Below are positions 74 through 50,190 of a stretch of DNA of 51,100 bases, in pieces (within the stretch, counting starts at the first letter, position 1; every line of letters begins with the position of its first letter). The position numbers were made by a program, and so were the translations under genes. A model generated the notes under the pieces. That model made no database searches. It was not told where the DNA came from and saw only the letters and a list, made by a program, of their open reading frames with translations. This stretch comes from an uncultured Candidatus Saccharibacteria bacterium (GTDB taxonomy: Bacteria > Patescibacteriota > Minisyncoccia > Phycocordibacterales > UBA9973), in assembly GCA_964596605.1 (NCBI GenBank), contig CAZQUJ010000001.1, forward strand, positions 1-51,100, given 5' to 3'.

Positions 74-1174
74 GTGGGAGCGATTGTTGTTATTTTAATA
101 ATCTTAATATTAGTTTTTTCTGGTCAAAATAAAAACAAAGAAACTATAAAAATTGGTTTTCTTGGTCCATTAACTGGAGATGCCGCATTGTATGGTTTGA
201 ACGCTCAAAAAGGTGCTCAACTGGCAATTGACGAAATTAATTCTAATGGAGGGGTTGATGGTAAAAAAATAGAATTAATTTCAGAAGATTCAAAGTGTAA
301 TTCTAGCTTAGGGGTTTCAGCTTTTAATAAGTTGATAAGTGCGGATAAGATTGATTATTTATTGGGGGATATGTGTTCTTCTGTTACTCTAGCTGTATCT
401 TCAATGGCCGAAGAAAATAAAATAGTAGTAATGTCCCCTGGTTCTACTAATTATCAAATTTCAAATTCTGGAGATTACATTTTTAGAACTGTTCCATCAG
501 ATGCTTTACAGGGGAAAAAGGGAGCAGAAATAGCGTATGAAAATAATTATAGAAAGGCTGCTATTTTTTACATTGGAGACAATGATTATGGAGAGGGCCT
601 CAAAAAAGTTTTTAACGAAAGATTTACGGAACTAGGTGGGGAAGTGGTATTTTCAGAATCACATCTTTCTGGTGACACAGATTTTAAAACACAGTTAATA
701 AAAATAAAATCAAAAAATCCAGATGTTTTATATCTTCCGACACAAACACAAGAGGCCGGTTTGATAATTAAGCAAGCTCAAGAGTTGAATTTAAATATCC
801 CAATAATAGGAACCGAAACAATGCAAAATGTTCAGTTTCTTAATCTGACCAATGACTCATCAGAAAAAGTAACATTCACTTCTTTTTCTGAGTTTGATGG
901 AGAAAGTGCTACTAAGTTCCTAGAATCATATAAAGAAAAATATAATGTGGAAGAAAAAGATATTTACTCCGATTATTCTTATGATGCAGTTTATGCAATA
1001 GTTAATTCAATGAAAAAATGTAACAGAATAACTCCTGAATGTGTAAAAACAAACCTTTATTCTGTTTATTTTATGGGATCAACGGGCCCAGTATCTTTTG
1101 ATAAAAATGGGGATGTAGAAGGAAAAGACTTCACTGTTTTTAAAGTGGAAGATGGAAAATTTATAAGGCAATAA
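74..1174 (+). CDS. ABC-transporter substrate-binding protein, LivJ/LivK-like (type 1 periplasmic-binding fold), paralogue 1 of 3
   Basis: 366-aa ORF with an N-terminal hydrophobic anchor. The motifs IKIGFLGPLTGDAALYG, SGDYIFRTVPSD and SFDKNGD are shared with the two downstream paralogues. It lies upstream of livHMGF-like genes. The start is uncertain: the frame opens after TAA 35-37 and has no ATG before GTG 74. Confidence 0.8.
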   Translation: MGAIVVILIILILVFSGQNKNKETIKIGFLGPLTGDAALYGLNAQKGAQLAIDEINSNGGVDGKKIELISEDSKCNSSLGVSAFNKLISADKIDYLLGDMCSSVTLAVSSMAEENKIVVMSPGSTNYQISNSGDYIFRTVPSDALQGKKGAEIAYENNYRKAAIFYIGDNDYGEGLKKVFNERFTELGGEVVFSESHLSGDTDFKTQLIKIKSKNPDVLYLPTQTQEAGLIIKQAQELNLNIPIIGTETMQNVQFLNLTNDSSEKVTFTSFSEFDGESATKFLESYKEKYNVEEKDIYSDYSYDAVYAIVNSMKKCNRITPECVKTNLYSVYFMGSTGPVSFDKNGDVEGKDFTVFKVEDGKFIRQ

Positions 1175-1193
1175 TCATGTTAATTAATTATTC

Positions 1194-2300
1194 ATGAAAA
1201 AACAAAATAAAATATATTGGATAGTGGCGGTGGTGGTTATAATTGTCTTAGTTGTTTTTCTTTCTTTAAATAATAAAGAAAAAATAAATGAGAAAATTAA
1301 AATTGGTGCCCTAGTACCCTTAACTGGAGATGTTGCTTCTTGGGGAGAAGCCATGAAGAAGGGATTTGATCTAGCCTTAGTAGACTCAGGGATAAAAAAT
1401 GTTGAATTAATTTATGAAGATGATAAATGTGAACCGGCAACTGGCGTGACTGCTACTCACAAGTTAATTGATGTAGATAAGGTTACTGCAGTAGCGGGAA
1501 CTACTTGTTCCAGTGTGACCTTAGCCATAGCTCCTATATTTGAACAAAATAAAACAATTTTGATGGCTATTGGGTCTTCAGCTCCAGATATAACAAACTC
1601 GGGAGATTATATCTTTAGAATGTGGCCGTCTGATAACTACGAAGCTTCTTTGATGGGTAAGTATATATCAGGGTTACAAGACAATCAAAATTTAAGTGTT
1701 TTGTATTCCAATAATGATTATGGTTTAGGGTTTAAAAATGCCCTAGAAGAAGAATATAAAAAAAGTGGAAAGACTATATTGTTTTCAGAACCTTTCAAGA
1801 AGGGCGACTCTGATTTGAGAACCCAATTAACTAAAATTAAAGAATTAAAAACTGATGGTATTTTTCTAATAGGTGTTCCGGCTGATTTAAAAATAATTCT
1901 AAAACAAATAGCAGAAATGAATATTGAGAGTCAATTGTTTTCCACCGTTAATATAATTGAACCCCAAATACTTTCAGAAAGTACTGTTCCGGTTGATGGT
2001 ATAGTGTATGGTGAATTAGAAATGTCTCAAGACTTAAAACAAAAATTAATTGATAGTTATGGAAATGAAGGTGAGAGTGTCTTAGCTAGTTCTTTTGCTT
2101 ACGACGGAATGATGTTAATATTAAATTCTATAAAGGAATGCGGAGGAAATTCTAGTTGTATTAAAAATGAATTGTATAAAGTTAAGGGGTATGAAGGTGT
2201 TAGCGGAATAACATCATTTGATAAAAATGGTGATCCGGTTGATAGAAATTTTATAATTAAAACTATAAAGAATAGAGTTCCATCGGTGTTGGAAAATTAA
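1194..2300 (+). CDS. ABC-transporter substrate-binding protein, LivJ/LivK-like, paralogue 2
   Basis: 368-aa ORF starting MKKQNKIYWIV with a TM anchor. It carries IKIGALVPLTGDVASWG, SGDYIFRMWPSD and SFDKNGDPVDRNF. The C-terminal ~70 aa are nearly identical to paralogue 3. Confidence 0.85.
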   Translation: MKKQNKIYWIVAVVVIIVLVVFLSLNNKEKINEKIKIGALVPLTGDVASWGEAMKKGFDLALVDSGIKNVELIYEDDKCEPATGVTATHKLIDVDKVTAVAGTTCSSVTLAIAPIFEQNKTILMAIGSSAPDITNSGDYIFRMWPSDNYEASLMGKYISGLQDNQNLSVLYSNNDYGLGFKNALEEEYKKSGKTILFSEPFKKGDSDLRTQLTKIKELKTDGIFLIGVPADLKIILKQIAEMNIESQLFSTVNIIEPQILSESTVPVDGIVYGELEMSQDLKQKLIDSYGNEGESVLASSFAYDGMMLILNSIKECGGNSSCIKNELYKVKGYEGVSGITSFDKNGDPVDRNFIIKTIKNRVPSVLEN

Positions 2301-2409
2301 TGTCTGTTTCAATTTGGTTGCTATAGTCATGATTTAGTCGCTTTTCTCCTTTGACAGCAAGGCTTTTTGTCTGTCCTATAAAGAATAATTTAAACACGGA
2401 TTTTAATCC

Positions 2410-2438
2410 TTGCAAAGGGGTCTCCTTTTGTCTATACT
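2410..2438 (+). promoter_or_regulatory. sigma70-like promoter candidate for paralogue 3 and the liv operon (TTGCAA-17 nt-TATACT)
   Basis: ttgcaa at 2410-2415, a 17-nt spacer, and tatact at 2433-2438, about 40 nt upstream of ATG 2480. A weaker look-alike module (ttgaca...tataaa) lies about 55 nt further upstream. Confidence 0.35.
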
Positions 2439-2479
2439 TTAAGAGTATGTGGACTGTTTATTAATTTAATCTTTTTATC

Positions 2480-3586
2480 ATGAAAAAACAAAATAAAATA
2501 TATTGGATAGTCGGGGCAATTATTGTAATTGTCTTGGCTGTTTTTGTTTCTTTAAACGAGAAAGAGAAAATAGATGAGAAAGTTAAAATAGGGATATTAA
2601 CTCCATTAACTGGTGATATGAATTCTTGGGGCCAGGCAACGTCTAAGGGTGTTGAACTAGCGTTAAGAGATTCAAAGATGGATAACATTGAGTTGATTTA
2701 TGAAGATAGTAAATGTGACGTATCTACTGGCGTAACAGCAACTAATAAGTTAATAGGAGTAGATGGTGCTAGCGTTATATTTGGAACTAACTGTTCCGGT
2801 GTAACCCTGTCTATTGCTTCAATAGTTGAACAAAAAGAAGTAGTGCAAATGGCTATTGGTTCTTCAGATCCTGCTATAACAAATGCAGGTGATTATACAT
2901 TTAGGATGTGGCCATCAGATGATTATGAAGCCTTGGTTATAGGTAATTATATGGTTAATAGTGGATATAGTAATTTCGGTATTCTCTATATGAATAATGA
3001 TTATGGTGTTTCTTTTAAGAATGCACTTAAAAAGGTATATCAAGATAATGGAAAAGAAATAGTAGTTGAAGAACCTTTTGAACAAAATGGTAGTGATTTT
3101 AAAACTCAATTAATTAAAATAAAGAAAGCCAATCCAGATGCTTTGTTTGTTGTAACTAATCCATCTGAGGCCACAGTAATTTTTAAACAAATTAGTGAAC
3201 TTAAGATAGAAACACAACTTTTCTCCTCTGGTTGGTTAATAGAAGATCCTCAAATTCTTACAGGTAGCTCAGACTTTATTGAGGGGGTTATCTATGCAAA
3301 CATGGAACTATCTACTGATTTAAAAGATAAAATGATAGAAAATTATGGAGATGAGGGAGAAAATTTAGCTGTTAGCTCTTTGTCTTACGACGGAATGATG
3401 TTAATATTAAATTCTATAAAGAAATGCGGAGGAAATTCTAGCTGTATAAAAGATGAATTATATAAAGTTAAAGGATATGAAGGTGTTAGCGGAATAACAT
3501 CATTTGATAAAAATGGTGATCCGGTTGATAGAAATTTTATAATTAAAACTATAAAGAATAGAGTTCCATCGGTGTTGGAAAATTAA
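2480..3586 (+). CDS. ABC-transporter substrate-binding protein, LivJ/LivK-like, paralogue 3
   Basis: 368-aa ORF. Its first 32 nt and last 125 nt are identical to paralogue 2. Its stop overlaps the livH-like start (TAATG). Confidence 0.85.
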   Translation: MKKQNKIYWIVGAIIVIVLAVFVSLNEKEKIDEKVKIGILTPLTGDMNSWGQATSKGVELALRDSKMDNIELIYEDSKCDVSTGVTATNKLIGVDGASVIFGTNCSGVTLSIASIVEQKEVVQMAIGSSDPAITNAGDYTFRMWPSDDYEALVIGNYMVNSGYSNFGILYMNNDYGVSFKNALKKVYQDNGKEIVVEEPFEQNGSDFKTQLIKIKKANPDALFVVTNPSEATVIFKQISELKIETQLFSSGWLIEDPQILTGSSDFIEGVIYANMELSTDLKDKMIENYGDEGENLAVSSLSYDGMMLILNSIKKCGGNSSCIKDELYKVKGYEGVSGITSFDKNGDPVDRNFIIKTIKNRVPSVLEN

Positions 3587-20533: not shown

Positions 20534-20604
20534 GCGGGTATGGTATAGTGGTAGCATGCGACCTTCCCAAGGTTGAGACGCGAGTCCGATTCTCGCTACC
20601 CGCA
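20534..20604 (+). tRNA. tRNA-Gly (anticodon CCC)
   Basis: Acceptor stem gcgggta/tacccgc, anticodon loop ttcccaa, T-loop tccgattc. No encoded CCA. Confidence 0.9.
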
Positions 20605-20956: not shown

Positions 20957-21031
20957 GCCCCCGTAGTTCAATGGATAGAACAGTTCCGTCCTAAGGAATA
21001 GATGTAGGTTCGATTCCCGCCGGGGGCACCA
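20957..21031 (+). tRNA. tRNA-Arg (anticodon CCT), CCA encoded
   Basis: Acceptor stem gcccccg/cgggggc, D-arm gttcaatggatagaac, anticodon loop gtcctaa, T-loop ttcgatt, ending acca. Confidence 0.88.
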
Positions 21032-28460: not shown

Positions 28461-28533
28461 GCTTGGGTAGCTCAGTTGGTAGAGCGCTCCCCTGAAGAGG
28501 GATAGGTCGGCAGTTCAATTCTGCCCCCAAGCA
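28461..28533 (+). tRNA. tRNA-Phe (anticodon GAA)
   Basis: Acceptor stem gcttggg/cccaagc, D-arm tagctcagttggtagagc, anticodon loop ctgaaga, T-arm ggcagttcaattctgcc. No encoded CCA. Confidence 0.9.
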
Positions 28534-38708: not shown

Positions 38709-39323
38709 ATGTATATGAAAATGTTGCTTGAGTTTGATTACAAAAAAGCTACACAGGCGATAAATTATCTCGCAAAAAAAGAAGGTGGAACGATAGATAA
38801 ACTTAAACTTATAAAGTTGGTTTATTTTGCAGATAGGTATCACCTAAGACGTTATGGTCGTCCTGTTATAAACGATGCTTATTTTGCTATGCAACTTGGC
38901 CCAGTTGGATCATCAGTAAAAGATATTGCGGAATTTTCTGATTTTTTGGATGACAGTGAACGTGAATATGCTACTAATTTTATTGGTCGTGGTGGAGATG
39001 CAAATACAGTAGTATCGATTGCAGAGGTTGATAATAAAATCTTTTCTGAAAGTGAAATTGAGGCGCTTGATTTTTCTTATAAAGAATTTGGTGAAAACGA
39101 TGCTTTAGAATTAGTAAATATTACTCATCGTTACCCAGAATGGAAAAAATTTAAGAATGCCCTAGATTCAAAAGAAACAACTCGTGAAGCTATGTCATAT
39201 AAGGATTTTTTTGATAATCCTAGTAATAATGTAAAAGATAAGTTTTCAATAGATCAAAATATTCTTTCTGCTTCAAAAGAATTGTTTGAAGATAATTATA
39301 AGATTGCTGAATATTGGAAGTAA
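38709..39323 (+). CDS. Panacea (DUF4065/SocA-like) domain protein, putative antitoxin
   Basis: ATQAINYLAKKEGGTIDKLKLIKLVYFADRYHLRRYGRPVINDAYFAMQLGPVGSSV matches the DUF4065 core pattern (KLxKLxYFA...HL...G.P......Y.A...GPV). The real start may be ATG 38715 or 38721. Confidence 0.7.
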   Translation: MYMKMLLEFDYKKATQAINYLAKKEGGTIDKLKLIKLVYFADRYHLRRYGRPVINDAYFAMQLGPVGSSVKDIAEFSDFLDDSEREYATNFIGRGGDANTVVSIAEVDNKIFSESEIEALDFSYKEFGENDALELVNITHRYPEWKKFKNALDSKETTREAMSYKDFFDNPSNNVKDKFSIDQNILSASKELFEDNYKIAEYWK

Positions 39324-39336
39324 TCATGTTTGTTTT

Positions 39337-39777
39337 ATGAATATTTCTGCACAAATTCGGATATTGGCTGGAATACGAACAGGATCTGTCTATTATTTTA
39401 TAGAAGAAAAACTTTCTTCTGAAAAACCTCATTATTTTATAGTATTAAATAGAAGCCCTAGAATAAAAAATATTCTTGTTTTAGTTTGTGCCTCTTCTCA
39501 AACTAAGAAAAGGCAAGAAATAGCAAAAAAATTAGGATTTTCTGATGATACTTTAGTTCTAATATCTCCATCTGAATATTCTCTATTTAGTAAAAATACT
39601 GTAGTTGATTGTAATAGTGTTTTTGAAAAGACGGCCCAATCACTTATTGATAAGCTTGAAGCTTGTAAATTGGGGGTTTGTACAGAAATAATGCCCGCAG
39701 AAATTGTTGAAAAATTGATTAGGGGAGTTAAAGCAAGTACTCAAGTTTCTGAAGAAGTTAAAGAAATACTTAAATAG
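39337..39777 (+). CDS. hypothetical protein, candidate toxin partner of the Panacea protein (remote MazF/PemK-like pattern)
   Basis: 146 aa from ATG 39337, 13 nt after the Panacea stop. GSVYYFIEE..KPHYFIVLN...LVLVCASSQ...SKNTVVDCNSVFE resembles the MazF/PemK layout (GDIxxVxF...KxRPxVVxS...VIVxPxTS...xSxVxxxQIRTID). The similarity is weak. Confidence 0.4.
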   Translation: MNISAQIRILAGIRTGSVYYFIEEKLSSEKPHYFIVLNRSPRIKNILVLVCASSQTKKRQEIAKKLGFSDDTLVLISPSEYSLFSKNTVVDCNSVFEKTAQSLIDKLEACKLGVCTEIMPAEIVEKLIRGVKASTQVSEEVKEILK

Positions 39778-44639: not shown

Positions 44640-44662
44640 AAAAAGGACATCAGTAGATGTCC
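44638..44662 (-). terminator. intrinsic terminator of the minus-strand orphan gene
   Basis: On the minus strand: ggacatc-tact-gatgtcc followed by ttttttt. The TGA stop of the orphan gene straddles the loop and the 3' stem arm. Confidence 0.6.
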
Positions 44663-45018
44663 CGTGGGCTTACTTCCACAATATCAGGAGGAACCATTTG
44701 TGGGTATTTTTTTGCTAGATTTATTGCGGCGTCAATTGTCTTTTTCAGCTCTTCTCCCACTACTACAAAGATACAAAAGTTACTTTCTATATACTCTACA
44801 TATTTGTAGAATTTATTCCAAGGAACAACCTTGTTTCTTCTACGAACCAAGGATGAATCCATGGTATAGGCGAGTAAAGAAACAGAATCTGTTCTTTCGA
44901 GCAGTATCTCAAGACTACCCGAAGTTAGCCGTCGTGCATTTTTCCTGATGCGAGATTCTTCTCGCCACTTTATAATTACCTCCTGGAGATAATTATAAAG
45001 ATTCTTAAGAATATTCAT
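44650..45018 (-). CDS. hypothetical protein (orphan, opposite strand, directly after murF)
   Basis: 122-aa ORF with its own terminator. I recognise no family. I prefer it over the overlapping + strand ORF 44664-44948, whose translation is low-complexity. Confidence 0.45.
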   Translation of the reverse strand: MNILKNLYNYLQEVIIKWREESRIRKNARRLTSGSLEILLERTDSVSLLAYTMDSSLVRRRNKVVPWNKFYKYVEYIESNFCIFVVVGEELKKTIDAAINLAKKYPQMVPPDIVEVSPRDIY

Positions 45019-45126: not shown

Positions 45127-45933
45127 ATGAAAAAAGAAAAACTAATTACTAAAATATTTGTCCCGATTACTTTTTTAGCCATGATAATTGTTAATTTCTT
45201 GGCTAATTTTTTGCCAATTAATAACATGACTACAGGGGGTGTTTCTGAACATTATCCTAATTTATTTACTCCCACTCCTCTAACTTTTTCTATTTGGGGA
45301 TTAATATATTTTTTGGTTATCTTATATGTTGTCTATCAACTAGGTTGGTTTAAAAAAGTTAGAAGAGACAAATCTCTTTTAGCTAAAGTTGGTCTTTATT
45401 TTTCAATTTCTTCTCTTGCTAACATAGCTTGGATTTTCTTTTGGCATTATGACTTAATCGTTTTGAGTTTTATCACCATCCTGGTATTGTTAGCTTCTCT
45501 TGTAATGGTGGTAATTAGTTTAGAAAAAGAAAGATTAGATAGTTGGCAAAAGTTATTAGTCAAACTTCCTTTTGATGTCTATTTAGGTTGGATCTCTATT
45601 GCTACTTTAGCTAATTTGGTTGTTCTTCTAAAGAGTTTTGAATTAATTAAAAATCCAGTTTGTTTTACCATTTCTATGCTTTCCATAAGTGCAATTATTG
45701 GATTGTTTGTTTTGATTAAAAGAAAAAATATAGTTTATGGTCTTGTCTTTATTTGGGCATATTTGGGAATATATATTAAACATACATCTCCGATGTTTTA
45801 TAACGGATCATATGATCGAATAATACTTGTAACTTCTATTTATTTAATTCTTTTTGTTGTTATGGAATTGGTAGTTTTCTTTCATTTTAAAGAAAAACCA
45901 AAAAATTTGTTTGAAAGAATTTTTAAGAGATGA
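45127..45933 (+). CDS. TspO/MBR-related tryptophan-rich membrane protein (long form)
   Basis: Polytopic, 268 aa. NFLANFLPINNMTTGGVSEHYPNLFTPTPLTFSIWGLIYFLV and YLGWISIATLAN resemble the long Firmicutes-type TspO-related family. Confidence 0.45.
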   Translation: MKKEKLITKIFVPITFLAMIIVNFLANFLPINNMTTGGVSEHYPNLFTPTPLTFSIWGLIYFLVILYVVYQLGWFKKVRRDKSLLAKVGLYFSISSLANIAWIFFWHYDLIVLSFITILVLLASLVMVVISLEKERLDSWQKLLVKLPFDVYLGWISIATLANLVVLLKSFELIKNPVCFTISMLSISAIIGLFVLIKRKNIVYGLVFIWAYLGIYIKHTSPMFYNGSYDRIILVTSIYLILFVVMELVVFFHFKEKPKNLFERIFKR

Positions 45934-48900
45934 AATATATAAAAAAATTTGAAGAAATAGGCAAGAAAGATGTAGACATTGCTGGAGGCAAGGGAGCTTC
46001 GTTAGGGGAGATGTTGAATTCTGGAATTCCTGTTCCTAATGGTTTTGTTATCCTTTCTTCAACTTTTGATTATTTTATTAAAAAAACAGATTTAATTCAG
46101 GAAATTGATTCTATTTTAGACAATGTTGATCGTAATGTCATACATGAAGTAGAAAAAGCTTCAGAAAAAATTCGAGAATTAATAATTTCCCGAAAAATTC
46201 CAGAGGATATTAAGATTGAGATAGAAAAGAATTTTAAAGAATTAGGATCTTCTTTTGTGGCTGTCAGATCATCAGCTACTGCTGAAGATGGTTCTCAAAA
46301 TGCTTGGGCTGGACAGCTAGAAAGCTATTTAAATACTAATAAAAATGATTTATTAGAAAATGTAAAGAAATGCTGGGCTTCTTTGTTTACTCCTAGAGCC
46401 ATTTTCTATCGTTTTGAAAAAGGGTTAGACAAAACAAAAATTTCTGTGGCTGTTGTAATTCAACAAATGGTTCAATCGGAAATTTCGGGAATTGCTTTTT
46501 CTGTTCATCCTGTGACTGAAGACAAAAACCAGGTGATAATAGAGGCAGGTTTTGGGTTGGGGGAGGCTATTGTGTCTGGATCGGTTACTCCAGATTCATA
46601 TGTTTTGGAAAAAGAACCAAGGGGGATTCTGGATATAAATATTAATGAGCAAAATAGAGCTTTGTATAGAGGAAAAGATGGGGGAGTAGAATGGAAAAAA
46701 TTAACTGAGGAAGGGTCAAAGAAACAAGTTTTGTCTAATTCTCAAATTTTAGAATTGGCAGAGTTGGTGATAAAAATAGAGAATCATTACGGTTTTCCTT
46801 GTGATATAGAATGGGCTTATGAAGATAATAAGTTTTATATAGTTCAATCAAGACCAATTACGACACTAAAAAGAGAGGTTAATGATGTGGGTACAGAAAC
46901 TATTAATTTAGTAAAAGAACACAGTAGAGAATATTCGATTGCACAAATAAATTCATATTGTGAAATAATAAATAAAATTAAAAAGGAAACAGGGTGTCAA
47001 ATAGAAAATGAATTATTTCTCTATAATCCAAAAATTAAATTAGTTTCAATTTACCATCAACCCCAAGAACTAAAAAATCTTTTTAAGGCTGTTGGGACTT
47101 TAGCAATGGATAAATTAGTTTTAAAAAAGATCATATCAGATTTTGAGCAATCTCTATCTGATATAAAACCATATCTGGAGAATAAAAAAGTTGTAAGAAA
47201 TATTGAAGAGTTTAATTTGCTATATGATTTATTTTTTAGATTTTATTTAGGGATAGCCTATGTTTGGGTGTTACCACTTCTTGAATACTTACCAGAAAAA
47301 GTAAAGGAAGTATCTTTAAAACTAAGAGAAAAGACTGAAAAATATTCTTCTAGAAGAGATCAAGTTTTAATAAATAATTTAAAAATTATTTATCCCGAGG
47401 TGGAGGATTTGGTAAAATATTTGTCTATAGATGAAATTAGAAGGGGGAAGATAACCGAAGAATTAATTTCTAAGTTAAAAGAAAGAGCAGATGGTTTTAT
47501 ATATTATCGAGATAATATCTATCAAGGTAAATTATATGAAGAATTTTTTGAAAATAATAAAATAAAATTAGATGATCAAGTATTAGATAAAGATATTAAT
47601 AAAATAACAGGTTCTGTTGGCTTTAGAGGGGTGGCAAAAGGGTTTGTTAGATTGATTTTTACCGAAAAAGATTTAAATAATTTTAAAGAGGGAGAAATTC
47701 TTGTTTCTCCTATGACTAGACCAGAATTTCTTTCTGTTATGCAGAAAGCTTTAGCTTTTGTCACTGACGAGGGTGGAATAACTTGTCATGCCGCAATAAT
47801 AGCAAGAGAAATGAAAAAACCTTGTATCATAAGTACAAAAATTGCTACTCAAGTTTTAAAAGATGGAGATTTGGTTGAAGTAGATGCAGACAATGGGGTA
47901 GTGAGGATATTGGAAAGGAGTGAAAAGTTAGTTGGAGAAAACGATAAGGCCAATAAAAAATTTGAATTAGATCCAGATATTTGGTCTGATTCTTTTAATT
48001 GGAAATATGGGGCATATCCGTTTTTTACCTCGGTATATACAAAACTTAACACAGAAGAAAAAAATAAATATGAAACAGATTGGAAATATTTTTTAAACTA
48101 TTTTAAGGATGGTCAACTTAATGCTTATCTACCAAAGAAAGAAGTGATTGATAATGGTCGTTTGATTATCAGTGAGCTTTTAAATGGCAATGAAAATTTT
48201 TTAAATGTATTTAATGATTATCACGATAAAATTAATCAATCCTTGTGTATTTGTCAAAAATACTTGAAAAGTAATTCCAATAAATTTGAAGAGATCTGGT
48301 TTCTAGTTCAAGACTCACTTTCAAATGCTGCTAAAATTTTGTTTAATTTTGATTACGGTCTAGACGATTATTTTAAAGAATTACAAAAGGATGATATTAA
48401 ACTTTTTGAAATTATTAATTCCAACATAGCAGAAGAAAAGGAATCATTTATTAGTGAAGCATCAAAAGAGCTAATAAAACTTGCAAAAGAAAATCCAAAT
48501 GATTTTGATATGGTTTATGAGACTTTCTTAATGAAATATGGATGGTTTCAAAATTCATATAAGGGGGTTTTTAATATAACGAAAGATTGGTTGCTTGATT
48601 TTTATAATAAAACAAAAGATCTTAATCCCGTACAAAAAACAAAAATAAAAATTAAAATTGATAGCAAGTATAAATTATTTATAAAAGTTATTAATAAAGC
48701 CATTTCTTTTAGAGACGACAAAAAGAAATTATTACTTTTCTCTGTAGGGATTATGAACAAATGGCTAGAAGAGTTTTCTGATAAGTACAAGCTAAACAAA
48801 AAAGATTTATTGTGGCTTTCGGTTGACGAAATTTTGGAACTCTCTAGCAGCGTTAATCTTCTTGAAGAGAAAGTAAATACCTATAAAAGTTCTAATAGTA

Positions 48901-49322
48901 GAATTGGGTTAATGAATAAAAATGGATATAAAGACATTGATGAAATCCTATGGGGTGAAGTAATTAAATTAAATAGTATTAGTGATAATACTAAAGAGAT
49001 AAAAGGTATAACTGGAAATAGGGGTAACATTAATGGAAAGGTTAGAATTATTTTAAAGGCAGAAGAAAGTAAAAATTTTGTAGATGGAGAAATTTTAGTA
49101 ACATCTATGACTAGACCTGAATTTTTACCCCTTATGGGTAGAGCCTCCGCCTTTATTACAGATGAAGGAGGAATAACTTGTCATGCCGCAATAGTTGCCA
49201 GAGAAATGGGTAAACCTTGTATAATTAGTACAAAATTTGCTACTCAAGTTTTAAAAGATGGAGACTTTGTTGAAGTTGATGCAGATAATGGAGTGGTCAA
49301 AATATTAGAAAGAAAAAAATAA
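45930..49322 (+). CDS. PEP-utilizing-enzyme family phosphotransferase: PPDK_N ATP-grasp domain plus two (helical region + phosphohistidine swivel domain) modules
   Basis: The N-terminus has GGKGASLGEM, VAVRSSATAEDG and DIEWAYEDNKFYIVQSRPIT. Swivel domains lie at about 47610-47917 and 49013-49319; both carry MTRPEF...TDEGGITCHAAI(I/V)AREM. No PEP/pyruvate TIM-barrel domain is present. Confidence 0.8.
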   Translation: MKYIKKFEEIGKKDVDIAGGKGASLGEMLNSGIPVPNGFVILSSTFDYFIKKTDLIQEIDSILDNVDRNVIHEVEKASEKIRELIISRKIPEDIKIEIEKNFKELGSSFVAVRSSATAEDGSQNAWAGQLESYLNTNKNDLLENVKKCWASLFTPRAIFYRFEKGLDKTKISVAVVIQQMVQSEISGIAFSVHPVTEDKNQVIIEAGFGLGEAIVSGSVTPDSYVLEKEPRGILDININEQNRALYRGKDGGVEWKKLTEEGSKKQVLSNSQILELAELVIKIENHYGFPCDIEWAYEDNKFYIVQSRPITTLKREVNDVGTETINLVKEHSREYSIAQINSYCEIINKIKKETGCQIENELFLYNPKIKLVSIYHQPQELKNLFKAVGTLAMDKLVLKKIISDFEQSLSDIKPYLENKKVVRNIEEFNLLYDLFFRFYLGIAYVWVLPLLEYLPEKVKEVSLKLREKTEKYSSRRDQVLINNLKIIYPEVEDLVKYLSIDEIRRGKITEELISKLKERADGFIYYRDNIYQGKLYEEFFENNKIKLDDQVLDKDINKITGSVGFRGVAKGFVRLIFTEKDLNNFKEGEILVSPMTRPEFLSVMQKALAFVTDEGGITCHAAIIAREMKKPCIISTKIATQVLKDGDLVEVDADNGVVRILERSEKLVGENDKANKKFELDPDIWSDSFNWKYGAYPFFTSVYTKLNTEEKNKYETDWKYFLNYFKDGQLNAYLPKKEVIDNGRLIISELLNGNENFLNVFNDYHDKINQSLCICQKYLKSNSNKFEEIWFLVQDSLSNAAKILFNFDYGLDDYFKELQKDDIKLFEIINSNIAEEKESFISEASKELIKLAKENPNDFDMVYETFLMKYGWFQNSYKGVFNITKDWLLDFYNKTKDLNPVQKTKIKIKIDSKYKLFIKVINKAISFRDDKKKLLLFSVGIMNKWLEEFSDKYKLNKKDLLWLSVDEILELSSSVNLLEEKVNTYKSSNSRIGLMNKNGYKDIDEILWGEVIKLNSISDNTKEIKGITGNRGNINGKVRIILKAEESKNFVDGEILVTSMTRPEFLPLMGRASAFITDEGGITCHAAIVAREMGKPCIISTKFATQVLKDGDFVEVDADNGVVKILERKK

Positions 49323-49335
49323 TTAAATTAATTTT

Positions 49336-50190
49336 ATGAAAGAATCAATAGGTTTAAGCAAAGAGTCAAAAGAAAAAATTAGTTCAGAGATAGTCTTACA
49401 TTTTTTTAGGCATTCCATTAAAGAAAAGACAAATAATCCTGATGATCTTATTCCTATTAGCCAAGAAGGAAGAAAATTAGCCAAAGAAAAATCTTTTAAA
49501 AATGTTAATTTAGACCAGTCTGTTGCTTTTGGTTCTCCTAAGATAAGAACACAGGAAACAGCTATGCTTATGATGGCTGGTGAATTAGATGATATTACGG
49601 GAGATGAAACACTAGAAGAATTAAAAGAAAAAATAAATGGAGGAGTTTCTTTTGGTTCTAAGATTGGAATAGATAAAAGATTAGATTATGAAGATGACTT
49701 TGAAAGTCCATTGGGTAAAAAAGCTTATGTAGCTTATAACAATAATAAATATCTATCTTTTTTAGCTAACGAAAGTGATATGATTTCAAAAAAAACAAAT
49801 GATAAAACCAAGTCTAATTATTCAGCTAAATCTTCCCAGTTAGCAAAAGTAATACATAAGTATATAAAAATTATTCCAAGGTGGAATAAGTTAGTTAGCG
49901 AAAAATCAGGTAAATATGATAGTAAGTTAGAAAGGTTTTTCTGTACGCATACTAGTATTCCAGAATCTTTTCTATTGAAAGTTTTTGAATTACTTGGAGA
50001 CAATAAATCAAAAGAAGAATATCTTGAAAAATATACTAATGATATAAACTATCTAGAGGGTTTTGAGGTGGATATAAAAAAATATCCAAATAAGAAGGAA
50101 CCAGATATAGTCATTACTTATGATCTTGGAGAAAAAAAGAATAGTATAAATGTTCCATTAGGACTAATAGAAAAAATGATTGAGGAATGA
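49336..50190 (+). CDS. histidine phosphatase superfamily protein (PGAM/SixA-like branch 1)
   Basis: IVLHFFRHSIKE (RH catalytic motif), ISQEGRKLAKE, FGSPKIRTQETA (compare SPxxRAxQTA), and a later FCTHTS (second His). Diverged. Confidence 0.5.
   Translation: MKESIGLSKESKEKISSEIVLHFFRHSIKEKTNNPDDLIPISQEGRKLAKEKSFKNVNLDQSVAFGSPKIRTQETAMLMMAGELDDITGDETLEELKEKINGGVSFGSKIGIDKRLDYEDDFESPLGKKAYVAYNNNKYLSFLANESDMISKKTNDKTKSNYSAKSSQLAKVIHKYIKIIPRWNKLVSEKSGKYDSKLERFFCTHTSIPESFLLKVFELLGDNKSKEEYLEKYTNDINYLEGFEVDIKKYPNKKEPDIVITYDLGEKKNSINVPLGLIEKMIEE

What the first reader, a model, noticed from the sequence alone, without database searches (positions are those of the whole stretch)
45930..49322. 1130-aa PEP-utilizing-family enzyme with one ATP-grasp domain and two tandem (helical domain + phosphohistidine swivel) modules
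The N-terminal ~310 aa form a clear PPDK_N/PEP-synthase nucleotide-binding domain. Two swivel His domains follow, at nt ~47610-47917 and ~49013-49319. Each is preceded by a helical region of unknown family, about 240 aa and about 330 aa long. The two helical regions share a local pattern (Y/W-L-S-I/V-DEI, then G..G.VR.I just before the swivel domain). There is no PEP/pyruvate-binding TIM barrel.

The single-module layout (ATP-grasp, substrate-binding domain, swivel His) is established for rifampin phosphotransferase-type small-molecule kinases. A doubled substrate-plus-His module on one ATP-grasp domain is something I have not seen described.

The two swivel segments are about 85% identical at the nucleotide level over about 150 nt by hand alignment (130/153), with perfect runs of 24-26 nt. 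The preceding regions are far more diverged. This suggests either recent duplication or ongoing gene conversion confined to the His domain.
Basis: partly seen in the sequence, partly recalled or inferred. Interest (0 to 1): 0.7.

Follow-up and report, generated by a model that had tools for sequence, protein, structure and literature searches.

The report
Modular multi-module dikinase of CPR bacteria
This 1130-aa enzyme from an ultra-small (CPR/Patescibacteria) bacterium has one ATP-binding domain followed by two different "binding domain plus phosphate-carrying histidine" modules, and it belongs to a large family in CPR bacteria and DPANN archaea, not found described in the papers searched, in which one ATP domain serves from one to at least five such modules, fused or encoded as separate genes.

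Summary
ORF 45930-49322 (+) encodes a PEP-synthase-like ATP-grasp domain, a 236-aa helical domain, a swivel-His domain (His620), a 360-aa helical domain and a second swivel-His domain (His1085). It has no TIM barrel.

The interpretation needs changing. The second module is not a duplicate. Its closest relatives are stand-alone 450-460-aa "helical domain + swivel" proteins. The high identity between the two swivels reflects family-wide conservation of the catalytic half plus AT-biased codons, not gene conversion.

The gene is one fusion state of a modular system in Patescibacteria and DPANN archaea:
- All 121 proteins examined have exactly one N-terminal ATP-grasp domain.
- The 120 proteins other than fragment P0001 carry 1-5 modules, drawn from at least 7 helical-domain types in varying order.
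- Some relatives are fully split operons with an ATP-grasp-only gene plus 6-7 single-module genes.
- The catalytic His is present in 337 of 337 swivels.

The long helical domain resembles only the rifampin-binding domain of rifampin phosphotransferase, and only weakly. The short one has no structural match. A diverged histidine-phosphatase-family gene (49336-50190) is a conserved operon partner.

Most likely function: a two-substrate water dikinase in which one ATP site charges two carrier histidines. The substrates are unknown. I found no paper describing this architecture.

The parts
45930..49322 (+). Whole gene: 1130-aa two-module dikinase-like protein (ATP-grasp, type-A module, type-G module)
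   Evidence: ORF and translation. Pfam PPDK_N plus two PEP-utilizers matches. Identical protein in an independent assembly.
45930..46895 (+). ATP-grasp (nucleotide-binding) domain, aa 1-322, PEP-synthase-like
   Evidence: Pfam PPDK_N aa 16-319, E 1.9e-101. The best PDB sequence hits for the whole protein are PEP synthases 8a8e and 9dae, then RPH 5fbs. All 121 family proteins examined have exactly one, always N-terminal.
46896..47603 (+). Helical domain 1 (type A), aa 323-558. Carries the conserved Arg466-Glu467, Glu502 and Arg519.
   Evidence: AF2 pLDDT 93.6, pTM 0.89. No Pfam, NCBIfam or PDB sequence match. No Foldseek match above probability 0.18. 769 representative proteins carry this domain, most often as stand-alone proteins of about 345 aa (type A + swivel). 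Conserved columns.
47604..47918 (+). Swivel phosphohistidine domain 1, aa 559-663. Catalytic His620 (codon 47787-47789) in DEGGITCHAAI.
   Evidence: Pfam PEP-utilizers. HMM coordinates. His invariant in 337 of 337 swivels. Residue mapping.
47919..47957 (+). Flexible inter-module linker, aa 664-676
   Evidence: pLDDT below 50 for residues 1-13 of the model of aa 664-1023.
47919..48998 (+). Helical domain 2 (type G), aa 664-1023. Carries the conserved Arg928-Asp929 (FRDDKKK), Glu967 and Arg991.
   Evidence: AF2 pLDDT 90.5, pTM 0.88. The top six Foldseek PDB hits are all RPH-Lm (probability 0.75-0.99, TM 0.35-0.41); nothing else exceeds 0.15. Closest homologues are stand-alone module proteins of 448-463 aa. 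Invariant residues.
48999..49313 (+). Swivel phosphohistidine domain 2, aa 1024-1128. Catalytic His1085 (codon 49182-49184).
   Evidence: Pfam PEP-utilizers aa 1052-1121. HMM coordinates. Nearest swivels are those of stand-alone type-G modules, e.g. P0122 at 74%.
49336..50190 (+). Conserved operon partner: diverged histidine-phosphatase-superfamily protein, 284 aa, with invariant Arg25-His26, Arg71 and His205
   Evidence: Weak Pfam His_Phos_1 and NCBIfam PmrG/GpmA hits over the same region. 134 homologues, many with PF00300. Catalytic tetrad invariant in 29 sequences. Lies directly after the last module gene in L024, L025 and L026. Also present in or beside the L008, L010, L016 and L018 clusters.
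45127..45933 (+). Upstream multi-pass membrane protein, 268 aa, whose stop codon overlaps the kinase start (ATGA). Probably co-transcribed; its membership in the system is unproven.
   Evidence: ORF coordinates. Sequence is hydrophobic and multi-pass by eye. No family hit. Not conserved in the one related locus compared, L006.

Best explanation
The gene encodes a bifunctional, RPH-type water dikinase built from exchangeable parts.

**Proposed mechanism**
1. A single PEP-synthase-like ATP-grasp domain binds ATP.
2. It transfers the beta-phosphate to the catalytic histidine of a swivel domain, His620 or His1085. The gamma-phosphate is released as Pi and AMP is left.
3. Each swivel domain sits on flexible linkers. 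It swings back to the helical domain immediately N-terminal to it.
4. There it passes the phosphoryl group to a substrate bound in that domain. A conserved Arg-(Glu/Asp) dyad (R466-E467; R928-D929) lies about 95 residues upstream of each swivel and is proposed to assist the transfer.
5. The two helical domains belong to different types (A and G), so the enzyme is predicted to phosphorylate two different substrates from one ATP site.

**Family context**
- The protein is one fusion state of a modular system in Patescibacteria and DPANN archaea.
- One ATP-grasp unit serves 1 to at least 5 modules, either in cis (fused proteins) or in trans (separate genes).
- A co-operonic histidine-phosphatase-family protein presumably hydrolyses or rearranges the phospho-products, or resets the phosphohistidines.

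**What is shown and what is inferred**
- Shown: the architecture, the intact catalytic motifs, the modularity, and the split and fused forms.
- Inferred by homology: the dikinase chemistry, loading of both histidines by the one ATP-grasp domain, and substrate binding by the helical domains.
- Unknown: the substrates.
For: **Architecture and catalytic motifs**
- Domain layout.
- The ATP-grasp and both swivels are strongly PEP-synthase/RPH-like, each swivel carrying the GGxTCHAAI motif.
- The catalytic His is invariant in 337 of 337 swivels, so no module looks degenerate.
- All 121 proteins have exactly one ATP-grasp, always N-terminal.

**The module is the unit**
- Stand-alone type-G modules: 19 proteins of 448-463 aa.
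- Stand-alone type-A modules are the commonest form of that type.
- Fully split operons exist with an ATP-grasp-only gene plus 6-7 module genes (L016, L021). Giant fusions also exist (L010, 2396 aa).

**Modules are shuffled**
- At least 7 helical-domain types occur in different orders.

**Precedent for loading in trans**
- HpeHI, CreHI and PpsAB are two-component homologues of RPH. Each pairs an ATP-grasp subunit with a subunit that carries the substrate-binding and swivel domains (PMC12167813).

**Helical domains as substrate-binding domains**
- The only specific fold match for type G is the rifampin-binding domain region of RPH.
- All types are linked by profile-profile hits. A-D scores 98.8%, B-G 98.6%, and B-C 95.6% over the C-terminal 78 or so columns.
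- Three columns are conserved across 469 modules of all types. One is an Arg followed by Glu or Asp in types A, E and G, a median of 95 residues before the swivel.
- In RPH-Lm, Arg666-Glu667 is essential for the second phosphotransfer (PMC4844700) and lies about 100 residues before the swivel (swivel start from the alignment).

**Flexible linkers**
- Low-pLDDT segments mark the module boundaries.

**Conserved phosphatase-family partner**
-.
Against: - There is no biochemical evidence for any member, and no substrate is known.
- The Foldseek match of type G to RPH is weak (E 3e-3 at best, TM 0.35-0.41).
- Type A has no structural match at all. Its link to type G is only transitive; the direct A-G comparison gives 0.8% probability.
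- The correspondence between the Arg-Glu/Asp dyad and RPH Arg666-Glu667 rests on position and motif. No residue-level alignment supports it, because sequence profiles do not extend past the swivel.
- In types B, C and D the residue after the conserved Arg is usually not acidic.
- I could not model the full-length protein. Whether both swivels can physically reach the single ATP site is therefore untested.
- Several stand-alone type-G modules have no ATP-grasp gene within 8-10 kb.
- A kinase paired with a phosphatase looks futile unless the phosphate serves as an activating or transient group.
Confidence: 0.6

Rival explanations
1. Phosphorelay or carrier array. The swivel domains pass one phosphoryl group along the chain (ATP, then His620, then His1085, then an external acceptor), or they act as redundant swinging arms, like the tandem lipoyl domains of 2-oxoacid dehydrogenase E2. 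The helical domains are scaffolds, not substrate sites.
For: - Both swivels are nearly identical around the catalytic His.
- Modules are joined by flexible linkers.
- Type A has no recognisable ligand-binding fold.
- 'A-A-swivel' proteins exist with two helical domains and one swivel.
Against: - The helical domains fall into at least 7 diverged types that are shuffled between proteins. Pure scaffolds or redundant arms would not be expected to do this.
- Each swivel co-varies with its own helical-domain type.
- Single modules exist as complete genes, like the substrate-binding subunits HpeH, CreH and PpsA.
- Type G matches the RPH substrate domain.
- The proteins have no terminal acceptor domain; they end at a swivel.
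Confidence: 0.12
2. Same mechanism, but a specific biological role: a multi-drug or xenobiotic-inactivating kinase. This would be an RPH-like resistance enzyme with several specificities, protecting an episymbiont from host or community antibiotics.
For: - RPH is the only structural relative of type G.
- RPH homologues were proposed to be a wide family of small-molecule dikinases, some acting on antibiotics (PMC4844700).
- rph-like genes have been counted in CPR resistome surveys (PMC8651080).
- The helical domains are highly diverse and shuffled, which suits a defence-like repertoire.
Against: - NCBIfam RPH models are far below their cut-offs: 395 bits against 999, and 278 against 1700.
- The gene sits among housekeeping genes (dcw cluster, FtsJ/TlyA) in a conserved operon with a phosphatase-family gene. 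A phosphatase would undo inactivation by phosphorylation.
- The family is equally present in DPANN archaea.
- There is no PADLOC defence hit. That library covers anti-phage defence only, so this is a weak argument.
Confidence: 0.15
3. Recent internal duplication of a module, or ongoing gene conversion confined to the His domain.
For: - 130 of 153 nt are identical, with identical runs of 24 and 28 nt.
- 49 of 74 conserved residues use the same codon, against 36.5 expected from codon usage (P about 0.001).
- This pair ranks highest of 106 within-locus swivel pairs for both amino-acid and codon identity.
Against: - The helical domains are of different types.
- Swivel 2 is closer to the swivels of stand-alone type-G modules (74%) than to swivel 1 (70%).
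- In the N-terminal half, the partner swivel ranks only 13th and 33rd of 336. In the C-terminal half, swivels in other, more distant family members reach 90-94% against 88% here.
- A cross-genome AT-rich pair reaches 0.71 codon identity.
- 25 synonymous differences remain among the 74 conserved codons.
- Only 7 of 311 swivels family-wide have their nearest neighbour in the same protein.
Confidence: 0.05
4. An ordinary PEP synthase or PPDK with a cryptic PEP/pyruvate TIM barrel, or an assembly artefact that joined two genes.
For: - The top NCBIfam hits are PEP synthase models, at 567 and 533 bits.
- The public annotation of a fragment reads 'phosphoenolpyruvate synthase/pyruvate phosphate dikinase'-like.
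Against: - Scores are below both PEP synthase cut-offs (598 and 739.75) and come only from the ATP-grasp and swivel domains.
- No TIM-barrel family is detected at E<=1.
- Both inter-swivel regions fold as helical domains, not barrels.
- The identical ORF appears in an independent assembly, and a collinear third contig exists.
- Hundreds of homologues share multi-module layouts.
Confidence: 0.01

Closest known systems
Rifampin phosphotransferase (RPH-Lm; PDB 5FBS/5FBT/5FBU, 5HV1-3)
   Same: - Domain order is ATP-grasp, helical substrate-binding domain, C-terminal swivel His domain.
- It is the only specific fold match for helical domain 2.
- An Arg-acid dyad lies about 95-100 residues before the swivel, as Arg666-Glu667 does in RPH.
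- Dikinase chemistry is expected by homology.
   Different: - RPH has one module; this protein has two, and relatives have up to 5 or more.
- The helical domains are shorter (236 and 360 aa, against about 428 aa).
- TM-scores to RPH are only 0.35-0.41 for domain 2, and there is no match for domain 1.
- NCBIfam RPH scores are far below their cut-offs.
- The swivel and ATP-grasp sequences are closer to PEP synthase than to RPH.
Two-component small-molecule dikinases HpeHI, CreHI and phenylphosphate synthase PpsAB
   Same: - The ATP-grasp is one polypeptide, and the substrate-binding domain plus swivel is another that is charged in trans (PMC12167813).
- This is exactly the layout of the split relatives of this gene (L016, L021) and of the stand-alone type-A and type-G modules.
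   Different: - Those systems pair one ATP-grasp subunit with one module. Here one ATP-grasp is associated with 2 to 8 modules of different types.
- Their substrate subunits are about 600-650 aa and belong to families such as PRK08296. Those models match here only over the swivel.
- Their substrates are phenolics in aromatic catabolism, for which there is no sign in these genomes.
PEP synthase (PpsA; archaeal multimeric form, PDB 8A8E and 9DAE) and PPDK
   Same: - They are the closest sequence relatives of the ATP-grasp and of both swivel domains, including the GGxTCHAAI motif.
- The swivelling-histidine mechanism is shared.
   Different: - In PpsA and PPDK the swivel follows the ATP-grasp directly, and a C-terminal TIM barrel binds pyruvate/PEP.
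- Here there is no TIM barrel, and a helical domain precedes each swivel.
Prodiginine condensing enzymes PigC, RedH and HapC
   Same: They have the same three-domain RPH-like layout. NCBIfam PigC and RedH models hit at 377 and 370 bits.
   Different: - Scores are far below their cut-offs of 1300 and 1350.
- They have a single module.
- They sit in a pigment biosynthesis context that is absent here.
Tandem swinging-arm carriers (lipoyl domains of 2-oxoacid dehydrogenase E2; carrier domains of NRPS/PKS). Analogy only, from general knowledge.
   Same: Several mobile carrier domains on flexible linkers are served by one loading site. The architecture is modular, like beads on a string, and is shuffled during evolution.
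   Different: - The folds and chemistry are unrelated.
- Here each carrier is paired with its own distinct helical domain, rather than being a redundant copy or a step in an assembly line.

Membership tests
PEP-utilising / swivelling-histidine dikinase superfamily | N-terminal PPDK_N-type ATP-grasp nucleotide-binding domain | tested here: met
   Pfam PF01326, aa 16-319, E 1.9e-101, 340 bits against a cut-off of 27.
PEP-utilising / swivelling-histidine dikinase superfamily | Mobile phosphohistidine domain with a catalytic His in a T/SxxGGxxxH context | tested here: met
   PF00391 matches twice, 172.6 bits. TDEGGITCH is present at His620 and His1085. The motif definition comes from PMC12167813.
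PEP synthase (PpsA) / PPDK | C-terminal PEP/pyruvate-binding TIM barrel (PEP-utilizers_C) | tested here: not met
   No such Pfam hit at E<=1. The regions between and after the swivels are helical domains. The protein ends 2 residues after swivel 2.
PEP synthase (PpsA) / PPDK | Score above the NCBIfam equivalog cut-off (NF005057: 598; TIGR01418: 739.75; TIGR01828: 843) | tested here: not met
   566.6, 533.2 and 132.8 bits respectively.
Rifampin phosphotransferase (RPH) | Domain order ATP-grasp, substrate-binding domain, swivel | tested here: met
   Met for module 1 in cis. Module 2 repeats the last two elements.
Rifampin phosphotransferase (RPH) | Substrate domain with the RIF-binding-domain fold | tested here: inconclusive
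   Type G: RPH takes the top 6 Foldseek hits (probability 0.75-0.99), but TM is only 0.35-0.41. Type A: no hit; it is linked to type G only through profile chains.
Rifampin phosphotransferase (RPH) | Score above the NCBIfam RPH cut-offs (NF041857: 999; NF000283: 1700) | tested here: not met
   395.1 and 277.7 bits.
Rifampin phosphotransferase (RPH) | Catalytic Arg-Glu dyad in the substrate domain (Arg666-Glu667 in RPH-Lm) | tested here: inconclusive
   R466-E467 and R928-D929 lie in a column that is R or K in 383 of 469 modules, about 95 aa before the swivel. No residue-level alignment to RPH could be obtained.
Two-component small-molecule dikinases (HpeHI/CreHI/PpsAB type) | Separate ATP-grasp subunit, plus a subunit carrying the substrate-binding and swivel domains | tested here: not met
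   This gene is fused. Relatives do meet the feature: ATP-grasp-only ORFs of 315-320 aa lie next to single-module genes in L016 and L021, and stand-alone modules are common.
Two-component small-molecule dikinases (HpeHI/CreHI/PpsAB type) | ATP-dependent phosphorylation of a small molecule, yielding AMP + Pi | not testable with these tools
   Requires an enzyme assay.
Histidine phosphatase superfamily (partner gene 49336-50190) | Catalytic Arg-His ... Arg ... His core | tested here: met
   R25, H26, R71 and H205 are invariant in 29 aligned homologues. Many homologues carry PF00300. The window protein itself scores below the Pfam cut-off (12.6 against 21.7 bits).

The most novel reading that the evidence does not exclude
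CPR bacteria and DPANN archaea have a combinatorial 'kinase hub'. A single ATP-grasp loading domain charges an exchangeable array of phosphohistidine carrier modules, each specific for a different substrate. The modules may be fused like beads on a string or encoded as separate genes, and they are coupled to a dedicated histidine-phosphatase-family enzyme. In these reduced genomes the hub could stand in for several individual kinases, serving salvage, activation or envelope modification. It would be the first multi-acceptor swivelling-histidine enzyme, and helical domains A to G would be new ligand-binding domain families.
Probability: 0.4. Interest if true: 0.85.

Novelty: new variant of a known kind. 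Interest (0 to 1): 0.72.

Why it matters
**Enzymology.** Swivelling-histidine dikinases (PpsA, PPDK, RPH, GWD, HpeHI) are textbook examples of one mobile carrier shuttling between one donor site and one acceptor site. A family in which one donor site serves two to five or more carrier/acceptor modules changes that picture. It raises testable questions:
- How do several swivels share one ATP site?
- Is loading ordered?
- Can modules be exchanged to build custom kinases?

**Biology of CPR and DPANN.**
- The system is fairly widespread in these lineages. The type-A domain alone defines 769 clusters at 50% identity.
- The genes are large for genomes of about 1 Mb, reaching 2648 aa.
- It keeps a conserved phosphatase-family partner, so it probably matters to these poorly understood organisms.

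**Annotation.** These genes are now labelled 'PEP synthase', 'PEP/pyruvate-binding domain-containing protein' or 'rifampicin phosphotransferase'. Those labels feed wrong calls into metabolic reconstructions (gluconeogenesis) and into resistome counts.

Tried and rejected
- **Cryptic TIM barrel or ordinary PpsA:** rejected.
- **Assembly artefact:** rejected. P0001, the 99%-identical 674-aa 'single-module' hit, is a fragment from an indel-rich contig, not a real short variant.
- **Gene conversion or recent duplication:** tested by nearest-neighbour analysis of 337 swivels, by half-domain identities, and by codon identity against codon-usage and cross-genome controls. Not supported.
- **Sequence searches of the two helical domains:** Pfam, NCBIfam and PDB searches with single sequences and with profiles found nothing meaningful.
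- **Residue-level alignment to RPH:** a profile of the whole type-G module aligns to PDB chains only over the swivel, so no alignment to RPH Arg666 could be made.
- **Weak Pfam hits:** Epimerase_2 (20.5 bits, inside swivel 1) and Toxin_YhaV are below their cut-offs. I treat them as spurious.
- **NCBIfam PRK05849:** matches aa 890-1126 at 63.6 bits against a cut-off of 501. Not a member.
- **PADLOC defence models:** no hit.
- **Conserved non-module neighbours:** all-against-all comparison of locus ORFs found only antisense artefacts and lineage-specific synteny (TrpRS, LytR, Der, Pth, DprA, TopA in Falkowbacteria-like genomes).
- **aaRS neighbours:** TrpRS, AsnRS/AspRS and AlaRS genes recur nearby, but in genomes this small and translation-rich I judge that unlikely to exceed chance; I did not test it.
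- **Upstream genes in relatives:** the window's upstream membrane protein is not matched in L006, and the genes upstream of the L024 and L026 kinases are unrelated to each other.
- **The search for related loci with the type-A alignment:** failed because no stretch was conserved enough.
- **Literature:** seven full-text searches found no description of multi-swivel dikinases. The library covers open-access papers only, so this is not proof of absence.

Full report
**1. The observation**

Window 45930-49322 (+) is one uninterrupted 1130-codon ORF.

Pfam finds a PPDK_N ATP-grasp domain at aa 16-319 (E 1.9e-101) and two PEP-utilizers mobile domains. It finds no PEP/pyruvate TIM barrel, even at E<=1. 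NCBIfam ranks PEP synthase models first, at 567 and 533 bits. These are below their cut-offs of 598 and 739.75, and the score comes only from the ATP-grasp and the two swivels. The RPH and PigC/RedH models are far below their cut-offs.

A swivel HMM places the two His domains at aa 559-663 and aa 1024-1128. Both carry DEGGITCHAAI, with catalytic His620 and His1085.

The two swivels are 70% identical over 105 aa and 78% over 272 nt.

The intervening regions are aa 323-558 (236 aa) and aa 664-1023 (360 aa). Neither has a Pfam, NCBIfam or PDB sequence match.

The ORF is not an assembly artefact. A Logan assembly of SRR8925805 encodes the identical protein with the same flanking genes. An indel-rich JGI contig is collinear at 99.1% over both modules. 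The 674-aa '99% identical' database hit is a fragment from that JGI contig.

**2. The genomic setting**

- The window has about 31% G+C.
- It carries ordinary chromosomal genes. These include three paralogous solute-binding proteins, LeuRS, MurJ, LepA, other aaRS genes, PBPs, and mraZ-rsmH-PBP-Mur ligase.
- Named homologues of the target and its neighbour come from Patescibacteria (Buchanan-, Moran-, Parcubacteria).
- The target lies in a probable operon. A 268-aa multi-pass membrane protein overlaps its start (ATGA). The kinase follows, then a 284-aa ORF 13 nt downstream, then an FtsJ/TlyA-type methyltransferase.

**3. The gene belongs to a large modular family**

A homologue search gave nearly 8000 hits with E<=1e-10 (the search scored only 8000 candidates). 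The top 120 are 661-1941 aa, and the named ones are almost all from Patescibacteria or DPANN archaea.

Swivel counts in this protein plus those 120 are:

| Swivels per protein | Proteins |
|---|---|
| 1 | 7 |
| 2 | 34 |
| 3 | 73 |
| 4 | 6 |
| 5 | 1 |

Ranking by summed bit score favours proteins with many modules, so these proportions are biased. The architectures themselves are real.

All 121 proteins (the query plus the 120 hits) have exactly one ATP-grasp domain, always N-terminal. The catalytic His is present in all 337 swivels.

The regions that precede each swivel cluster into at least seven types:

| Group | Types | Typical length |
|---|---|---|
| Short | A, C, D | about 240-255 aa |
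| Long | B, E, F, G | about 340-380 aa |

These types occur in many orders. Examples are A-B and B-A, B-B-A and A-B-B, and D-A-B. The query is A then G.

Its closest full-length relatives, P0007 and P0009, are also 1130 aa and are 57-58% identical over the first 59%.

**4. The module is the evolutionary and genetic unit**

The closest relatives of helical domain 2 are 19 stand-alone proteins of 448-463 aa. Each consists of a type-G domain plus a swivel, with no ATP-grasp.

A type-A profile finds 769 representative proteins among 1.84 billion. The commonest form is a stand-alone protein of about 345 aa (type A plus swivel). The longest member is 2648 aa.

Scanning fetched loci with my own HMM library shows every degree of fusion:

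| Locus | Organism label | Layout |
|---|---|---|
| L016 | Nanoarchaeia | ATP-grasp-only gene of 320 aa among seven single-module genes |
| L021 | Parcubacteria | Six or seven module genes (some frameshifted), then an ATP-grasp-only gene |
| L018 | Saccharibacteria | Six module genes in a row |
| L010 | archaeon | 2396-aa ORF (ATP-grasp-B-s-A-s-G-s-A-B-s) plus three further module genes |
| L008 | not named in the output | Several stand-alone modules, a 1619-aa three-module protein and a second giant protein of about 2300 aa |

The two-component dikinases HpeHI, CreHI and PpsAB provide the biochemical precedent. There, an ATP-grasp subunit charges a separate subunit that carries the substrate-binding and swivel domains (PMC12167813).

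**5. What the helical domains are**

Both give confident AlphaFold2 models (pLDDT 90.5 and 93.6). They share a secondary-structure plan: an N-terminal beta-alpha-beta-beta element, a helical bundle, then a beta-hairpin and a helix before the swivel. Type G has a larger bundle.

- **Type G.** The six best Foldseek PDB hits are all Listeria rifampin phosphotransferase (probability 0.75-0.99, E 3e-3 to 0.14, TM 0.35-0.41). Every other hit is a generic helical protein with probability at most 0.15.
- **Type A.** Nothing exceeds probability 0.18.

Profile-profile comparison links the types in a chain. A-D scores 98.8%, C-D 97.2% and A-C 92.7%. B-G scores 98.6%, B-E 97.9%, B-F 97.7% and E-G 94.1%. 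The short and long groups join through the C-terminal 70-80 columns (B-C 95.6%). The direct A-G comparison is not significant.

I aligned the 130 residues before the swivel in 469 modules. Only three positions are conserved across all types:
- An Arg (R466/R928), which is R or K in 383 of 469 modules. It is followed by Glu or Asp in types A, E and G, and lies a median of 95 residues before the swivel.
- The Glu of the LSxDEI motif (E502/E967).
- A second Arg (R519 in module 1). In type G the invariant R991 probably corresponds to it.

In RPH-Lm, Arg666-Glu667 contacts the transferred phosphate and is essential for the second phosphotransfer (PMC4844700). It lies about 100 residues before the swivel. 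The correspondence is suggestive, but it rests on position and motif, not on an alignment.

**6. Duplication and gene conversion**

Four lines of evidence argue against both:
- Swivel domains are simply very conserved. Mean identity between proteins is 55% overall, and 68% in the C-terminal half that holds the catalytic His.
- In that half the two copies are 88% identical, but swivels from other proteins reach 90-94% against swivel 1.
- In the more variable N-terminal half, each swivel is closest to swivels of its own module type. Swivel 1 groups with single-module type-A proteins P0036 and P0019. Swivel 2 groups with stand-alone type-G proteins P0121-P0123. The partner in the same protein ranks 13th and 33rd of 336.
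- Only 7 of 311 swivels in multi-module proteins have their nearest relative in the same protein.

Codon identity gives a small signal. It is 49 of 74 conserved residues, against 36.5 expected (P about 0.001). This is the highest of 106 within-locus pairs. However, an unrelated AT-rich genome gives 0.71, so shared codon bias is a sufficient explanation.

The protein therefore arose by fusing two distinct modules, each bringing its own swivel.

**7. A conserved partner**

The 284-aa ORF just downstream (49336-50190) gives only weak hits to His_Phos_1, PmrG and GpmA, all over the same region. It nevertheless belongs to a family of 134 detected homologues of about 285-300 aa, many of which carry PF00300. 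The catalytic Arg-His, Arg and His residues are invariant in 29 aligned members.

Homologues lie directly after the last module gene in three further loci:
- L024, after a 1602-aa kinase.
- L025, after a 1708-aa kinase.
- L026, after a 1117-aa kinase and two stand-alone modules.

Eight phosphatase homologues share a longest-contig length with one of the listed kinase homologues, which suggests they lie on the same contigs.

In loci chosen without reference to the phosphatase, a family profile or Pfam finds a member in or beside the clusters of L008, L010, L016 and L018. L006 has a canonical His_Phos_1 gene adjacent. Loci with a lone type-G module have none. L014 has a HAD phosphatase between two modules.

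**8. Interpretation**

The best-supported model is a two-acceptor water dikinase.
1. One PEP-synthase-like ATP site charges His620 and His1085.
2. Each swivel then delivers the phosphoryl group to a substrate held by its own helical domain.
3. The phosphatase-family partner acts on the products or on the phosphohistidines.

The architecture, the intact catalytic motifs, the modular inheritance and the split/fused continuum are shown. The dikinase chemistry, the sharing of one ATP site and substrate binding by the helical domains are inferred by homology. The substrates are unknown.

I considered four rivals: a His-to-His relay or redundant carrier array, a multi-drug inactivating role, duplication or gene conversion, and ordinary PpsA or an assembly artefact. 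The evidence above weighs against each of them to varying degrees.

**9. Novelty**

Seven full-text searches found papers on RPH, HpeHI, GWD, HapC and a CPR resistome survey that counts rph-like genes. None describes more than one swivel module per ATP-grasp domain. The library covers open-access papers only.

I rate this a new variant of a known kind. The parts and the chemistry are those of RPH-type and two-component dikinases. What is new is the one-to-many modular organisation, the two unannotated helical-domain families found here (types A and G), and the conserved phosphatase-family partner.

Noticed in passing
window 38709-39777: A SocA/Panacea antitoxin-domain protein (204 aa, E 3.5e-21) overlaps a 163-aa ORF with no family hit. 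This may be a PanA-type toxin-antitoxin pair, lying just upstream of mraZ.
   Followed up: no
window 44650-45018 (-): A lone minus-strand 122-aa ORF lies between the Mur ligase gene and the kinase operon. It has an 11/12 sigma-70-like promoter match (45066-45038) and a terminator-like hairpin (44663-44644). It has no Pfam or NCBIfam hit.
   Followed up: partly
window 74-3586: Three tandem paralogous Peripla_BP_6 solute-binding proteins (366, 368 and 368 aa) sit at the head of what is probably a branched-chain amino-acid-type ABC transporter operon. That is an unusual investment for a small genome.
   Followed up: no
window 20534-20604, 20957-21028, 28461-28533: Three tRNA genes are the only Rfam matches in the window.
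   Followed up: no
L002 1726-3123 and L002 1-297: Near a stand-alone type-G module in a 376-kb Patescibacteria contig there is a bAvd plus reverse-transcriptase pair, like a diversity-generating retroelement. A DNA_topoisoIV-family (GyrA/ParC-type) topoisomerase subunit there is interrupted by an intein with a LAGLIDADG domain.
   Followed up: no
L004, L017, L019, L020, L022, L023 (about 1 kb upstream of the match); also L024 579-1526: A TrpRS-type (tRNA-synt_1b) gene sits directly upstream of stand-alone type-G modules in six Falkowbacteria-like genomes; in L004 the gap is 1 nt. One also lies two genes upstream of the three-module kinase in L024. AlaRS and AsnRS/AspRS genes flank other clusters. 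This may be lineage synteny or chance in aaRS-rich small genomes.
   Followed up: partly
P0140-P0147 and similar proteins (about 555-590 aa): About 15 of 138 representative proteins have two type-A helical domains followed by a single swivel ('A-A-s'). The one-domain-per-swivel rule is therefore not absolute.
   Followed up: no
L008 14681-16860: An rve-family integrase gene lies between the module cluster and a second giant protein of about 2300 aa with PPDK_N and PEP-utilizers domains. This hints at mobile-element-associated rearrangement of module arrays.
   Followed up: no
L025 1289-1846; L006 6525-8364: Lipid- and envelope-related genes lie next to multi-module kinases: a PAP2 phosphatase directly upstream in L025, and PGA_cap, patatin and PLD genes around the one in L006. 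L008 has Mur ligase and MurB genes upstream, and the window has the dcw cluster upstream. This is a possible but unproven link to the cell envelope.
   Followed up: no
P0358 (493 aa): One homologue of the phosphatase-family partner is fused to a transglutaminase-like domain (PF01841).
   Followed up: no
P0060, P0389 and L014: A few family members are labelled Flavobacteriaceae or Gammaproteobacteria MAGs. Both the kinase and its phosphatase partner appear under 'Flavobacteriaceae bacterium' labels. Mis-binning of CPR contigs seems more likely than a true occurrence.
   Followed up: no
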